Positions 38,013 through 42,778 are shown, counted from the stretch's first letter. The stretch is DNA of 64,000 nt from an uncultured archaeon (GCA_964632315.1 CAZWEM010000011.1:1-64000); one strand, 5' to 3'. Program-made: numbers and translations. Notes: a model not told the origin generated them from the letters alone.

Positions 38013-38084
38013 ATTGGCTTTTACCTTGCAAGGTTAGTCATGACCAGTCTCGTTTTTTTACTGGTTCATTCATCCTAAGCCAAC
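38013..38084 (-). promoter_or_regulatory. Eukaryote-like SECIS element of vhuU
   Basis: mRNA GG-AUGA-AUGAACCAGU-AAAAAAACGAG-ACUGGUCAU-GA-CU: AUGA/GA core, 9-bp helix II with one bulge, apical adenosines; basal GUUGGCUU/AAGCCAAU helix. Confidence 0.8.
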
Positions 38085-38222
38085 ATTCAGCTTGCGGGAA
38101 TATATCTCCTCGCCGTCCTCTTTGGTCACGGTAATGTGGGCGGCACACGATAGTCAGCAATCAAAACATCTGACTACCATTTCGAGGAGGTTTACCATTC
38201 CCTCCGGTATTTCTTCACTCAC
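38070..38222 (-). CDS. vhuU: Selenoprotein VhuU (separately encoded C-terminal Ni-binding peptide of the hydrogenase large subunit); Sec UGA at 38156-38154
   Basis: Manual translation GTG..TGA: MSEEIPEGMVNLLEMVVRCFDC-U-LSCAAHITVTKEDGEEIYSRKLNVGLG; supplies the L2 motif missing from the upstream large subunit; SECIS follows. Confidence 0.92.
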
Positions 38223-38256: not shown

Positions 38257-39564
38257 TTATTTAATCCAAGGATCGGGTAACTTTAATCCTTCCAACGCCT
38301 TATCTTCAAACACTTGTTTAGCAACGTGCATTAAGGTTTTTTCAATGCCCGCAATGTTATGATTGGTCGCTACCAAGAGATTTGCCTTCTTGCAGATTCC
38401 ATCATTGTCGGACCAAATGTTATAGAGTAAAAGACCTCGAGGAGCCTCTGTGACTCCTACACCTTGTCCTTCTCTTGGTTCAACATCTAATGTCTTACAA
38501 TCAGGGTTAACGATATCAGGATCTTGCAATAAAGTAGCGATTACCTCAATTGATTCAACCAATTCGATTAATCGGGCCCAATGATACGCAAAAGTATGGT
38601 GAATTACATCAGTTCCAACTTTTGCTCTCATTGCCTTTAATGCCTCATCTGCTAATGGAGTCGCCATTTTGTCAGCACAATTTAACATTGCTAATGTATT
38701 TGCACGATAAATTCCCTCTGGATAGCCTGCGGGTTTGTAATACATATGCGTTGCATAACTGTGGGGTGGAATGTGTTCTCCTAATGCGTCAAGGTAATTC
38801 TGTGGAGCATAATCAATCTTTTTACCGTCTGGAGTGACGATTCGGATGTCTCCATCATAAATATCATGAACTCCATTCTTAGTCATTCCCACATAATAAG
38901 TGGGAACAACTCCTACGTTTGCTACGACATCCCAATAATCTTCGACTACCTTTAACCCAATCTCGACAGTCTTTTTTGACCATTCAACCTGATCTTCAAT
39001 CTGTTTCAGAAATTTATCTCGAGCATCTTCATCCATCGGTTTTTTCATCCCGCCAACGATTGCACTAATGGGATGGACCGATTTACCGCCAATTTCAGCA
39101 CATAGCTTCTGCCCGAAGTCCATCATTTTCAGAGCCATTGCTCCGACATCAGGCATTTTATTAATAACGTGCACCACATTCCTTAAAGCTGGATCCGCAA
39201 ACGGGCCCAACAAAAAGTCGGGTGCCGCTAATGCGTAAAAGTGAAGCGCGTGCGATGAATATTGTTTCGCATTTTGTAAAAGTTGTCGTAACTTATATGC
39301 TGGTTCGGGTATCTCGACCTTCCATGCATCTTCTACAGCCTTAGTAGGCGTTAGATGATGAGGAATAGGACAAATACCGCAAATTCTTGGCGTGATTCTA
39401 GGGATGTGCTCACAATAACGACCTTCCACAAACTTTTCGAAAAATCGGGTAGATTGAATGTTGAATTGAACGTCCTTTACCGTACCATCATCACCTAGAG
39501 TTAAATGGAGAGCACCATGGCCTTCCAATCTAGTGACTGGTTCAACTTCTATTTCTTTTACCAT
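38257..39564 (-). CDS. vhuA: Group 3c [NiFe(Se)] hydrogenase large subunit, lacking C-terminal L2 motif
   Basis: PVTRLEGHG, PRICGICPIPHH (L1), HFYALAAPDF, EAPRG; ends without DPCxxC. Confidence 0.93.
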   Translation of the reverse strand: MVKEIEVEPVTRLEGHGALHLTLGDDGTVKDVQFNIQSTRFFEKFVEGRYCEHIPRITPRICGICPIPHHLTPTKAVEDAWKVEIPEPAYKLRQLLQNAKQYSSHALHFYALAAPDFLLGPFADPALRNVVHVINKMPDVGAMALKMMDFGQKLCAEIGGKSVHPISAIVGGMKKPMDEDARDKFLKQIEDQVEWSKKTVEIGLKVVEDYWDVVANVGVVPTYYVGMTKNGVHDIYDGDIRIVTPDGKKIDYAPQNYLDALGEHIPPHSYATHMYYKPAGYPEGIYRANTLAMLNCADKMATPLADEALKAMRAKVGTDVIHHTFAYHWARLIELVESIEVIATLLQDPDIVNPDCKTLDVEPREGQGVGVTEAPRGLLLYNIWSDNDGICKKANLLVATNHNIAGIEKTLMHVAKQVFEDKALEGLKLPDPWIK

Positions 39565-39575
39565 ATTTTTTTCAC

Positions 39576-40952
39576 CTACCTGTAATTTTTATTGGCGGCT
39601 AACGTGAACTTTTCGGAAAAGCCTAACTTATCTTTCATCTGAGAAAGCAATTCTTCTTTTGATAAAGCCACGTTAAAGCCCTTAGTCGCTACTTCCGCAA
39701 ATCTCTCAGCTTGGTTAACGTTCCATTCAGTCTGACCATAACAACCAGAACATGGGGCGTTAACTCTTATACATAGCCCGCCGCAGCCTGCTCTCGTGAT
39801 GGGACCTGCACATAGATACCCTTGTTCTATGAAGCAATCTTCCATGTTGGGGAGTCCTTCATAATCTCTCTTGACTCGTGTCATGGTTGATTTACTTCCA
39901 ATGATTCTAGGACAGGTATCACAAACAGTACTGATTTCGGTGAAATCTCGATGATCTCTGAGGTATGACATAATAGTTGAAGCTACTTGTTCCGTTTCTG
40001 AAGGCAAGTTCGCTAATGGTGTTTGGGGAGTACCTTTTTTCTTAACTTGTTTTAAGATATCACCCGCCAAATCGAACCCAGCCATCAGGGGAACGTTTAA
40101 GAATAGAGCTAAGAATTCGTATAAGTTCTTCTTGTCTCCTGAACTTAATGAATCCGCATTTTTAACCATATCTGTAAGTTTTCCAACACGGGCATCAACG
40201 GCTTTGCTTGGACCAAAACATCCTACACAGGGTTTTCCGTCACTAGTACATTTTAACGAACATCCAGCACTGGTGATAGGACCAAAACAAAGAACACCTT
40301 TTTCTAACACGCAACCACTGTCCCTTAGCACGCATTCACTACAGAATGGTGCATCTGCCATTGGTTGAGGTTTTTGACCGAGTAAGAATTGCACTGCTGA
40401 AATGATTTGTTCGGGTTTAGGCGGACACCCGGCAATATACGCATCGACCTTAATAACTTCATCTAAAGGTACGATCTTGCTTGTAAATCCAGGCATGTGT
40501 ACAGTAGGTTCTTTTGGACTCTCATTGGTAATCGATTCTGCTTGAGTAAATTTTCTATCGATTGCCTCTTGAATATCCCACTGATTTGCCAAACCATGAA
40601 CGTTTCCATAGCACGAGCATGAACCAAAGGCAATGATTAATTGGCATTTTTCACGCATTAATTTAGCTTGCTCAAGATCCTTATTCGTTCTTAAACTGCC
40701 TTCTACGAATCCAACGAGTACATCTCCATCAGGTCTTGCTTTCAGAGAATCTTCCTTGAAATCAACAACTGCGGGCCAATATACAATATCTAATGCAGGG
40801 AGCACCGGTAATAAGCCTAAATCTATGCTTGACTAGCGAAATGGAATCAATGTGCATTTAATAGGCTTTGGTGGCAACCCCAACATATCTGTAAGCAAAG
40901 GAAACCTTCACATTAAATCAGAGTTTTGCATAAATGCCACTTTAATAGCCAT
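39576..40952 (-). CDS. vhuG: Group 3c hydrogenase small subunit, spliced: exons 40952-40917, 40885-40852, 40822-39576 (438 aa), with duplicated C-terminal Fe-S module
   Basis: ORF-track protein (from 40805) lacks the N-terminal CxxC; removing two inserts gives MAIKVAFMQNSDCWGCHQSLLNAHLGLLPVLPALDIVYWP; VEGS, AFGSC, GCPP motifs follow. Confidence 0.9.
40823..40851 (-). other. BHB mRNA intron 2 of vhuG (29 nt)
   Basis: AUUGAUUCCAUUUCGCUAGUCAAGCAUAG; helix AUGC/GCAU, bulges ACA and AGA, inner stem UUGAUU/AGUCAA, outer AA/UU and AAGCCUA/UAGGCUU. Confidence 0.88.
40886..40916 (-). other. BHB mRNA intron 1 of vhuG (31 nt)
   Basis: UUAAUGUGAAGGUUUCCUUUGCUUACAGAUA; helix UCUG/CAGA, bulges AUU and UAU, 10-bp inner stem, outer AAC/GUU. 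Confidence 0.9.
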
Positions 40953-41497: not shown

Positions 41498-42778
41498 TTA
41501 AATGTTAATACTGTTAATCGAGTGATCCAAGTAATTATGATCGACTGATAAAAAATTGATGTTTTTCATGGAATCGAACGTAATTGGTAAAACTTTTAGT
41601 TTGTTGTGGTTAAGATTCAGATATCTTAAGTTAAATAGAGAGCATATTCCACATGGAATCACGGATAAGTTATTTTGTTCTAAGTTGAGATATTCCAGGT
41701 TCCTGAGATTTGAAATGAACTTTGGAAGTTTATACAAGCTAGTACATTTTAGATTTAACGATTTTAGCGAACTAAGATACTTCAAGCAATTCTTAAGAGA
41801 GATTACTTTAATGTTTTCAAAATTAAGGCTTATCACCTCTCCTTTGCATAATTCGTATTTTAGAGATGGATAACATTTTATTAAATAATTAATGACGAGG
41901 GAATTGAGTAAAAAATCGCCTAATTTCGAACTGGATTGGAATTCAAAATCGAGATGGTATAAACGATTAATAGGTAATGCATGTGATATCCATCGAATTG
42001 CAGGAAAGAAAAGTGACTTGGAAATTTCAGGTGTAAAATTTTTGATAGTTTGGATTAATTCGAGTTGGCATCTAAGATTATAATCATTAGTAAAGGACCA
42101 TTTAAGTGGAAATAATTTTAGTTCCTTTAATTTCCTTAAATGCTTGATTCCGTGAATTTCTGAAAGATCTTTGATTGCTTCTCTGTCTTTCCAGGTAAGA
42201 ATTTTATTATTTATGCGTGAGAAGTCTAATTTTCTTACTAAACCATCCTCAATTTCGTACTGTAATAACGGGAATTTCCTTATTAAATAACTCACCGTGA
42301 ACAAGTTGATTAAAATAGCTAATAAATCAGTAACACTTGGATTCTTGCGTACTATGTCAGAAATCTGAGCATCATTTAACAACTCAACTTTCTTTAGATA
42401 TGAGATCAACTTTCCCTTCGCATTATCATTAGTTAGATCATGTAATGAGTTCAAAATTGTGATGATACAATTAAAAGAATTTTCTTGACTAATTGCCCAC
42501 AATAATGGAGCTGCTGCTTTGTCTGAAAACCTCTCCTTGATAACTGAAACAGCCTCTTTTCGAATTATATCATTAGGATCAGAAACAATGAGATTCTCTA
42601 AGATTTCAAATAAGTTGTCATCTTTCCCATCAATATTCTCCAGTACATGAATACAACTTGTACGAATTTTTTCATCGTCCACGTTTTCCAATAGAATGGA
42701 TATCAGGCTAATTGCATTAGACTTACTTATCGTGTTATTTACAAAATTCTGGTAAATTTTAGTAGGAGAACTCGTCAT
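41498..42778 (-). CDS. HEAT-repeat + leucine-rich-repeat protein
   Basis: LENLIVSDPNDIIRKEAV; C-terminal LEYLNLEQNNLSVIP, LRYLNLNHNKLKVLP. Confidence 0.85.
   Translation of the reverse strand: MTSSPTKIYQNFVNNTISKSNAISLISILLENVDDEKIRTSCIHVLENIDGKDDNLFEILENLIVSDPNDIIRKEAVSVIKERFSDKAAAPLLWAISQENSFNCIITILNSLHDLTNDNAKGKLISYLKKVELLNDAQISDIVRKNPSVTDLLAILINLFTVSYLIRKFPLLQYEIEDGLVRKLDFSRINNKILTWKDREAIKDLSEIHGIKHLRKLKELKLFPLKWSFTNDYNLRCQLELIQTIKNFTPEISKSLFFPAIRWISHALPINRLYHLDFEFQSSSKLGDFLLNSLVINYLIKCYPSLKYELCKGEVISLNFENIKVISLKNCLKYLSSLKSLNLKCTSLYKLPKFISNLRNLEYLNLEQNNLSVIPCGICSLFNLRYLNLNHNKLKVLPITFDSMKNINFLSVDHNYLDHSINSINI

What the first reader, a model, noticed from the sequence alone, without database searches (positions are those of the whole stretch)
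40823..40851. vhuG intron 2: second independent BHB, 29 nt, splitting a His codon
mRNA: AAGCCUA-UU-AA-AUGC-AC^A-UUGAUU-CCAUUUCGCU-AGUCAA-GCAU-AG^A-UU-UAGGCUU. It has a central helix AUGC/GCAU, bulges ACA and AGA, a 6-bp inner stem and a 7-bp exon-exon stem AAGCCUA/UAGGCUU. Canonical cleavage restores GCA C^AU UUA GGC (A-H-L-G), in frame with the long ORF. The two ends of the 34-nt exon pair with different partners, so both BHBs can form at once. Two such motifs 34 nt apart are unlikely by chance (qualitative judgement, not computed).
Basis: partly seen in the sequence, partly recalled or inferred. Interest (0 to 1): 0.88.

Follow-up and report, generated by a model that had tools for sequence, protein, structure and literature searches.

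The report
tRNA-type mini-intron in Asgard hydrogenase gene
A 29-base insert shaped like the introns archaea cut out of tRNAs interrupts the start of a hydrogenase gene in an Asgard (Promethearchaeota) archaeon. Relatives without the insert read exactly as predicted after its removal, so the mRNA almost certainly has to be cut and re-joined, which in print is known for only one other archaeal protein gene (cbf5).

Summary
Observation confirmed; interpretation supported. Bases 40851-40823 (minus strand) form a bulge-helix-bulge (BHB): 4-bp helix AUGC/GCAU, bulges ACA and AGA, a 6-bp inner stem, and an exon-exon stem. About 100 intronless orthologs in Promethearchaeota read ...AAYGCNC|AYYTNGG..., which is exactly the junction given by cutting after the second base of each bulge.

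- **Same site in relatives:** five other lineages carry different 28-30 nt inserts here. These fold the same way, with compensatory changes.
- **Intron 1:** this 31-nt intron lies 34 nt upstream. It recurs in four congeners, and 7 of its 17 pairs show compensatory changes.
- **Machinery:** the genome encodes a catalytic EndA like the Aeropyrum alpha subunit, a second EndA paralog that lacks the catalytic His, and RtcB.
- **Not locus-specific:** the only uS8 gene found and an EF-2 paralog carry similar 29-30 nt BHB inserts.

Two further observations:
- A ~55-nt exon patch around intron 2 is mosaic. It is 93% identical to an intron-bearing lineage but 67% to the closest relative, which is intronless, so recombination moved or removed the intron.
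- The exon-exon stem is conserved, with Ser/Gly codon covariation, even in intronless orthologs.

No RNA data could be obtained, so splicing is inferred. This scan has noted similar mRNA introns before on other DNA.

The parts
40917..40952 (-). Exon 1 of the MvhG/VhuG-like small-subunit gene (ATG at 40952; encodes MAIKVAFMQNSD)
   Evidence: Orthologs begin MAVKVAFMQxSD. In the closest relative, L125, the last 30 nt are 29/30 identical.
40886..40916 (-). Intron 1, 31 nt. BHB with central helix UCUG/CAGA and bulges AU^U and UA^U.
   Evidence: The same site is occupied in G022, G019, G020 and G045 with UCCG/CGGA. Across the five sequences 89% of cells are paired, 7 of 17 pairs are compensatory, and 0 of 500 shuffles do as well.
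40852..40885 (-). 34-nt micro-exon encoding CWGCHQSLLNA plus the first base of a His codon. It aligns with the conserved N-terminal CxGC motif of MvhG (5ODC_E).
   Evidence: The amino-acid sequence is identical in most orthologs although 8-9 of the 34 nt differ.
40823..40851 (-). Intron 2 (the finding), 29 nt. It supplies the third base of the 5' bulge, the inner hairpin, the GCAU strand of the central helix and two bases of the 3' bulge.
   Evidence: It is absent from about 100 orthologs, exactly at the predicted junction.
40854..40857 (-). 5' strand of the central 4-bp helix (AUGC, exonic). It pairs with GCAU at 40825-40828.
   Evidence: These exon bases are invariant in all six carriers of an intron at this site.
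40862..40868 (-). Exonic outer stem, 5' strand AAGCCUA (Gln-Ser-Leu codons). It pairs with UAGGCUU at 40813-40819 (Leu-Gly-Leu codons).
   Evidence: An equivalent stem of at least 6 bp is present in 60 of 66 orthologs, against 28% under synonymous resampling.
39576..40822 (-). Exon 3: the remainder of the small-subunit gene (AT of the His codon, 414 codons and the stop).
   Evidence: PF01058. dN/dS is about 0.05 against L013.
40794..40877 (-). Mosaic (recombinant) tract: exon 2 nt 9-34, intron 2 and exon 3 nt 1-29.
   Evidence: Exon identity to the closest relative, L125, is 67% here, against 97% upstream and 90% downstream. Identity to the intron-bearing L067 is 93% here, against 82% and 73%. 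Binomial P is about 4e-6 and 2e-4.
38257..39564 (-). Downstream [NiFe(Se)] hydrogenase large subunit (VhuA-like). Together with the genes below it, it forms the operon whose first gene needs the splicing.
   Evidence: PF00374; NF041785 VhuA, 471 bits, below the cut-off.

Best explanation
Bases 40851-40823 are a real archaeal BHB intron in the coding sequence of a group-3c (MvhG/VhuG-like) hydrogenase small-subunit gene of a Promethearchaeota (Asgard) archaeon.

Proposed mechanism:
1. After transcription, exon 2, intron 2 and exon 3 fold into helix-bulge-helix-bulge-helix.
2. The splicing endonuclease EndA, here probably an (alpha-beta)2 heterotetramer, cuts after the second base of each 3-nt bulge (AC^A and AG^A).
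3. RtcB joins the exons, restoring the His codon (C|AU).
4. Together with removal of the 31-nt intron 1, which lies 34 nt upstream, this gives a 438-codon reading frame.

Without splicing, translation stops after 14 codons. With only intron 1 removed, it stops at the UGA right after ...LLNAH.

What is shown: the structure, the exact junction, structural covariation, the presence of the enzymes, and similar introns in other genes of this genome. What is inferred: the cleavage and ligation themselves.

At the DNA level, the intron's presence or absence is linked to a short recombination tract. It has therefore been moved or removed by homologous recombination between related lineages.
For: 1. 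**BHB geometry.** It is present in the MFE fold and holds only in the register that the alignment allows. The chance expectation is about 9e-4.
2. **Exact junction.** Among 67 distinct orthologs from genomes and about 50 more from metagenomes, all but six read ...GCNC|AYYTNGG with no insert, which is the junction predicted by BHB cleavage.
3. **Same site, other sequences.** L067 (28 nt, central AUGC/GUAU) and the G007 type (L012, L029, L133, L137; 30 nt, AUGC/GCAA) occupy the same site with divergent sequences and the same fold. Across the six sequences 87.6% of cells are paired, against 30-55% for slid controls, and 4 pairs change on both sides.
4. **Intron 1.** It recurs in four congeners, with 7 of 17 pairs compensatory and 0 of 500 shuffles as good.
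5. **Micro-exon.** It keeps CWGCHQSLLNAH although 8-9 of its 34 nt differ from relatives. In the intronless ortholog these residues align to the N-terminal CSGCH-SLL segment of MvhG (5ODC_E).
6. **Machinery.** One EndA paralog is most like the A. pernix catalytic subunit (3P1Z_B, E = 8e-34). A second paralog lacks the catalytic His. RtcB is present.
7. **Same genome, other genes.**
   - The only uS8 gene found is split by a 29-nt BHB insert (GGCG AA^A ... CGCA AU^U); the spliced product reads YIGEFERYDDG.
   - An EF-2 paralog has a 30-nt BHB insert containing a TAA.
8. **Gene under constraint.** Over the long term the gene is under purifying selection (dN/dS about 0.05 against L013).
Against: - No RNA evidence is available.
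- The 3' side of the motif is relaxed: the AA/UU helix is not in the MFE.
- The 71-nt fold is only modestly better than shuffles (z = -2.05).
- The closest relative, L125 (93% aa identity), lacks both introns. The inserts could therefore be recent, and their harmlessness is not proven by long co-existence in this lineage.
- The genome has a 44%-identical paralog (C24), so this copy is not demonstrably essential.
- My genome-wide 'BHB plus ORF-rescue' census showed no excess over shifted controls.
Confidence: 0.85

Rival explanations
1. The gene is a pseudogene. Two short DNA insertions (29 and 31 nt; the 29-nt one flanked by a 3-nt ATT direct repeat) have inactivated this hydrogenase small-subunit copy. 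The BHB-like folds are irrelevant, and a paralog covers the function.
For: - The closest relative, L125, has neither insert.
- An ATT repeat flanks the insert.
- A 44%-identical paralog exists on C24.
- There is no RNA evidence.
Against: - Both inserts fold as BHBs in exactly the register that restores the frame (joint chance about 4e-7).
- Inserts at the same two sites persist in nine other lineages with compensatory changes that preserve the helices.
- The 414-codon exon 3 and the rest of the operon are intact in a genome of 33% G+C.
- The only uS8 gene found in the genome carries the same kind of insert, and that gene cannot be dead.
Confidence: 0.07
2. The insert is read through at the ribosome by translational bypassing (as in T4 gene 60) or by frameshifting, not by RNA splicing.
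For: A stop codon (UGA) directly follows the CAU take-off codon. A hairpin follows, and a second CAU lies near the 3' end of the insert.
Against: - Landing on the second CAU (40827-40825) resumes at AGA UUU AGG, which is out of frame with exon 3 and runs into a stop.
- No single +1 or -1 shift connects the frames, because the exon-2 frame stops at once.
- The conserved feature across carriers is the BHB pairing, including exon-intron pairs, not take-off and landing codons.
Confidence: 0.02
3. The insert is an assembly or binning artefact of this metagenome-assembled genome.
For: - This exact 29-nt sequence is unique to the window.
- It was not found in the metagenome collection.
- The genome's estimated contamination is 8.6%.
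Against: - Independent assemblies from other studies carry inserts at the same two sites.
- An artefact would not create a frame-restoring BHB twice within 94 nt.
- The flanks are continuous with a 64-kb contig.
Confidence: 0.02

Closest known systems
BHB intron in the cbf5 (pseudouridine synthase) pre-mRNA of Crenarchaeota (Watanabe 2002; Yokobori 2009, PMC2738675)
   Same: - A short BHB intron lies inside a protein-coding sequence.
- Removal restores the frame.
- The host has a hetero-oligomeric EndA with a catalytic subunit like that of A. pernix or Sulfolobus.
- Distribution among relatives is patchy, pointing to gain and loss.
   Different: - The phylum is different (Promethearchaeota/Asgard) and so is the gene (hydrogenase small subunit).
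- Two introns lie 34 nt apart and enclose a micro-exon.
- There is evidence for a recombination tract around the intron.
- Splicing is shown experimentally for cbf5 but not here.
Non-canonical and multiple tRNA introns of Asgard archaea and Thermoproteales (PMC11291895; bioRxiv 10.64898/2026.10.13.758758)
   Same: - The motif, the size class and the presumed enzymes are the same.
- Several introns can occur per gene.
- Gains appear to be repeated.
- The preprint infers (alpha-beta)2 EndA for 44 of 60 Asgard genomes.
- aragorn recognises only 30 tRNA genes in this genome, 19 of them with introns.
   Different: - The host RNA here is an mRNA, so the cut positions must also preserve a reading frame.
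- There is no tRNA body to help recognition.
- Neither of these two papers mentions introns in protein-coding genes, as far as my term searches of their text showed.
BHB intron in the 5' UTR of Haloferax volcanii HVO_1309 mRNA (PMC7714728)
   Same: It is an EndA substrate located in an mRNA.
   Different: It lies in the untranslated leader, not in the coding sequence. Haloferax has a homodimeric EndA.

Membership tests
Archaeal bulge-helix-bulge (EndA-type) intron | [quoted passage not shown] | tested here: met
   AUGC/GCAU with bulges ACA and AGA. All 4 central pairs are Watson-Crick.
Archaeal bulge-helix-bulge (EndA-type) intron | Flanking helices on both sides (hBHBh') | tested here: met
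   The inner helix is 6 bp. The outer side is 2 bp (AA/UU), then a UU bulge, then 7 bp. The 2-bp helix is not in the MFE, so the 3' side counts as relaxed.
Archaeal bulge-helix-bulge (EndA-type) intron | Cutting at the symmetric positions in the bulges and joining the ends gives the functional RNA | tested here: met
   The predicted junction is identical to that of intronless orthologs. The 438-codon frame is restored and aligns to MvhG from residue 2.
Archaeal bulge-helix-bulge (EndA-type) intron | Structure conserved by covariation among homologous introns | tested here: met
   Six carriers of a site-2 intron: 87.6% of cells paired, 4 pairs changed on both sides. Intron 1: 7 of 17 pairs compensatory. 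The samples are small and the sequences are related.
Archaeal bulge-helix-bulge (EndA-type) intron | Host encodes the splicing endonuclease and the RtcB ligase | tested here: met
   There are two PF01974 genes. One is like the catalytic alpha subunit; the other lacks the catalytic His. RtcB scores 568 bits.
Archaeal bulge-helix-bulge (EndA-type) intron | Excision observed in RNA (junction reads, circular intron, or in vitro cleavage) | not testable with these tools
F420-non-reducing hydrogenase small subunit (MvhG/VhuG) | Score above the curated family cut-off, and the N-terminal CxGC motif shared with MvhG | tested here: inconclusive
   NF045875 scores 226 bits against a cut-off of 450. MvhG 5ODC_E matches at E = 6e-53 in two stretches, with an inserted ~130-aa Fe-S module between them. 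The CxGC motif aligns.

The most novel reading that the evidence does not exclude
In Promethearchaeota, EndA-type mini-introns in mRNAs form a dynamic population. They spread and disappear at the DNA level by homologous recombination, with co-conversion of about 25-30 nt of flanking exon. They sit in the loops of exonic hairpins that are maintained by synonymous-codon covariation even in intronless alleles, so these hairpins act as 'proto-splice sites'.

This would be a prokaryotic analogue of intron presence/absence polymorphism, in the closest archaeal relatives of eukaryotes.
Probability: 0.3. Interest if true: 0.85.

Novelty: new member of a known kind. Interest (0 to 1): 0.74.

Why it matters
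The papers I could search report coding-sequence BHB introns for one gene only, cbf5 in Crenarchaeota. A 2020 study states this explicitly (PMC7714728).

Here an Asgard archaeon needs two such splicing events, around a 34-nt micro-exon that holds the conserved N-terminal CxGC motif aligned with MvhG (5ODC_E), before it can make a hydrogenase subunit. The only uS8 gene found in the genome has the same kind of insert.

Practical and conceptual consequences:
- **Annotation:** gene callers truncate these genes (409 aa called here instead of 438), so metabolic reconstructions of Asgard MAGs can miss or mis-size genes.
- **Expression:** it may depend on EndA and RtcB.
- **Intron evolution:** gain, loss and lateral movement of introns in protein genes can be studied in the archaeal lineage closest to eukaryotes.

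Tried and rejected
2. **Genome-wide census.** I scanned for 'BHB motif plus ORF rescue'.
   - The relaxed motif gave 994 rescued sites against 887-979 for shifted controls.
   - The strict motif gave 101 against 114-128.
   - There is no excess because gene boundaries dominate the hits. The strict motif and the long-flank requirement also exclude both vhuG introns. The census says nothing either way.
3. **Junction search.** An exact search in metagenome contigs with a 0-30 nt gap found nothing.
4. **Mobile repeat.** BLAST of the two introns against the genome found no other copies, so they are not a repeat family by sequence.
5. **Translational bypass and frameshifting.** Considered and rejected on frame arithmetic.
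6. **Self-splicing introns.** Group I and group II introns are excluded by size.
7. **tRNA census.** aragorn recognised only 30 tRNA genes and is unsuited to multi-intron tRNAs.
8. **L104 and L107.** L104 has a 31-34 nt insert near site 1 whose BHB I could not draw convincingly. The 5' end of L107 could not be interpreted.

Full report
**What is there.**

The gene lies on the minus strand. Its parts are:

| Part | Coordinates | Size and content |
|---|---|---|
| Exon 1 | 40952-40917 | ATG at 40952; encodes MAIKVAFMQNSD |
| Intron 1 | 40916-40886 | 31 nt |
| Exon 2 | 40885-40852 | 34 nt; CWGCHQSLLNA plus C |
| Intron 2 (the finding) | 40851-40823 | 29 nt |
| Exon 3 | 40822-39576 | rest of the gene |

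- Unspliced, the frame stops after 14 codons.
- With only intron 1 removed, it stops at the UGA that follows ...LLNAH.
- With both removed, it is a 438-codon ORF.

The product is a [NiFe] hydrogenase small subunit (PF01058). Its best matches are VhuG (NF045875, below the cut-off) and MvhG (5ODC_E, E = 6e-53). The alignment to MvhG starts at residue 2 and covers the CxGCHxSLL motif encoded by the micro-exon.

Downstream lie a VhuA-like large subunit, a small Sec-containing VhuU-like ORF, and HdrC/HdrB-like genes.

**The structure.**

The 71-nt region folds, as its MFE, into:
- the outer stem AAGCCUA/UAGGCUU;
- an internal loop;
- the central helix AUGC/GCAU;
- the 3-nt bulge ACA;
- the inner stem UUGAUU/AGUCAA.

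The energy is -13.6 kcal/mol with z = -2.05. In the 171-nt fold, intron 1's BHB (UCUG/CAGA, bulges AUU and UAU) forms at the same time.

Read as a BHB, the 3' bulge is AGA, followed by a 2-bp AA/UU helix that the MFE leaves open. The 5' half is therefore canonical and the 3' half slightly relaxed.

A relaxed BHB definition is met only in the register AC^A / AG^A. In this genome such motifs occur at 2.35e-4 per position and length. The ortholog alignment allows four placements of the 29-nt indel, because ATT is repeated at both ends. The chance expectation is therefore about 9e-4, and about 4e-7 for both introns together.

**Comparative test.**

The genome is a 4.45-Mb, 33% G+C Promethearchaeota (Asgard) MAG. 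I collected 67 distinct orthologs from species genomes and about 50 more from metagenomes.

- **Intronless orthologs:** nearly all are intronless. They read ...GAT|TGYTGGGG... and ...GCNC|AYYTNGG..., which are exactly the two junctions predicted by BHB cleavage.
- **Site 1:** it is occupied by 31-nt inserts in G022, G019, G020 and G045, with central helix UCCG/CGGA instead of UCUG/CAGA. On the five sequences 89% of cells pair, 7 of 17 pairs change on both sides, and 0 of 500 shuffles match this.
- **Site 2:** it is occupied in L067 (28 nt; AUGC/GUAU) and in the G007 type (L012, L029, L133, L137; 30 nt; AUGC/GCAA with one A.A mismatch). All share the exonic AUGC-ACA half and hence the same 5' splice site. 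On six sequences 87.6% of cells pair, against 30-55% in slid controls. Four pairs change on both sides, including the pair next to the 3' bulge (A-U to G-C through two synonymous Leu codon changes).
- **Rate of change:** intron interiors diverge fast. By my own count from the aligned rows they are 48-65% identical, even where the exons are about 90% identical. This is what selection on structure alone predicts.

**Capacity to splice.**

The genome has two EndA genes.
- The C28 paralog keeps Tyr, His and Lys. It is most like the catalytic alpha subunits of the heterotetrameric enzymes of Aeropyrum pernix, Sulfolobus tokodaii and Pyrobaculum.
- The C8 paralog has Ser in place of the His. This suggests an (alpha-beta)2 enzyme.

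RtcB is present.

The phenomenon is not confined to this locus. I checked two earlier first-reader notes myself.
- The only uS8 gene found (C35) is split by a 29-nt insert: GGCG-AA^A-hairpin-CGCA-AU^U. Its removal gives ...YIGEFERYDDGRTGKF....
- An EF-2 paralog (C25) has a 30-nt insert with a TAA: UCAG-AU^U ... CUGA-AA^G.

A ribosomal protein gene with no second copy detected cannot be a pseudogene, so this organism must remove such inserts.

**History of the intron.**

In a quick ML tree the window sits in a 10-member clade (SH-aLRT 97) in which both sites are patchily occupied:
- the window has both introns;
- G016, G023 and G057 have none;
- L067 has only a site-2 intron;
- G020, G022, G019 and G045 have only intron 1;
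- G054 has none.

The G007-type carriers lie outside this clade.

The closest relative of all, L125 (93% aa identity, from a metagenome), lacks both introns. Identity of the window to two relatives is mosaic:

| Region | Window vs L125 | Window vs L067 |
|---|---|---|
| 38 nt before exon-2 nt 9 | 97% | 82% |
| 55 exon nt flanking intron 2 | 67% | 93% |
| Next 300 nt | 90% | 73% |

The binomial P values are about 4e-6 and 2e-4. The excess similarity to L067 also holds in the 19 patch bases that take no part in the BHB, where I counted 84% against 58% by hand.

So a recombination tract of roughly 60-150 nt coincides with the presence/absence difference. The direction is unresolved. There are two possibilities:
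- The window imported the segment, possibly with both introns, from a member of the L067/G022 clade.
- L125 lost both introns by conversion from an unsampled intronless allele.

I favour the first, because L125's patch is about as diverged from every other lineage as the rest of its gene is.

**An unexpected extra.**

The exon-exon stem that closes intron 2's BHB also exists in intronless orthologs.
- In 60 of 66 orthologs there is a stem of at least 6 bp between the Gln-Ser-Leu and Leu-Gly-Leu codons. Under synonymous resampling the figure is 28% (maximum 45% in 300 replicates).
- The Ser and Gly codons covary. UCC goes with GGA or GGG (33 cases) and AGC with GGC or GGU (12 cases). There are no cases of UCC with GGC or of AGC with GGA.
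- UCC is among the rarest Ser codons in these genes.

Relatedness inflates these counts, but several separate clades show the switch. The stem may be a landing pad that makes insertion into its loop instantly spliceable. It may be a relic of frequent intron turnover. Or it may have a function of its own.

**Rivals.**

- **Pseudogene:** argued against by the register-exact BHBs, their persistence with covariation in nine other lineages, the intact operon and the uS8 case.
- **Translational bypass or frameshift:** fails on frame arithmetic.
- **Assembly artefact:** argued against by independent assemblies that carry inserts at the same sites.

What is missing is RNA.

**Novelty.**

In the searchable literature, BHB introns in archaeal coding sequences are reported only for cbf5, plus one Haloferax 5'-UTR case (PMC2738675, PMC7714728). 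Four searches found nothing on Asgard protein genes. Recent Asgard work covers tRNA introns only (PMC11291895; bioRxiv 10.64898/2026.10.13.758758).

This scan has noted similar mRNA introns before on other DNA and elsewhere in this genome. Those notes were leads, not evidence.

The kind is therefore known and this is a new member of it. The tandem arrangement, the micro-exon, the recombination tract and the conserved exonic hairpin are the additions.

Noticed in passing
window 40813-40868 (-), and the same codons in 66 orthologs (L004-L117): The exonic stem between the Gln-Ser-Leu and Leu-Gly-Leu codons is conserved in 60 of 66 orthologs, most of them intronless. Ser and Gly codons covary (UCC with GGA/G; AGC with GGC/U). 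Under synonymous resampling 28% would be expected.
   Followed up: partly
window 40794-40877 (-) compared with L125 and L067: A mosaic tract surrounds intron 2. The window matches its closest relative, L125, at 97% and 90% outside the tract but 67% inside it. Inside the tract it matches the intron-bearing L067 lineage at 93%.
   Followed up: partly
G000 C35:14462-14490 (-) (locus L053/L054): The only uS8 ribosomal-protein gene found is split by a 29-nt BHB insert (GGCG AA^A ... CGCA AU^U). Removal gives YIGEFERYDDG.
   Followed up: yes
G000 C25, around 29382 (-) (locus L051): An EF-2 paralog carries an in-frame 30-nt BHB insert containing a TAA (UCAG AU^U ... CUGA AA^G), just before the EQERGIT motif. 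A second EF-2 copy on C59 has no insert.
   Followed up: yes
window 38070-38222 (-): A small ORF with an in-frame TGA reads ...VRCFDC-U-LSCAAH..., like the Sec-containing C-terminal piece (VhuU) of a split NiFeSe large subunit. The ORF as read also ends on a TGA.
   Followed up: partly
L104 (JAEOUA010000009.1), upstream of the CWGC codons: A distant ortholog has a 31-34 nt insert a few bases from site 1. I could not draw a convincing BHB for it. The 5' end of its sister L107 is unreadable as this gene.
   Followed up: partly
whole genome G000: aragorn recognises only 30 tRNA genes, 19 of them with introns, in a genome estimated 99% complete. This fits the heavily interrupted tRNA genes reported for Asgard archaea.
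   Followed up: no
window 41498-42778 (-): A 426-aa leucine-rich-repeat protein (LRR_8, LRR_14) lies directly upstream of the hydrogenase operon.
   Followed up: no
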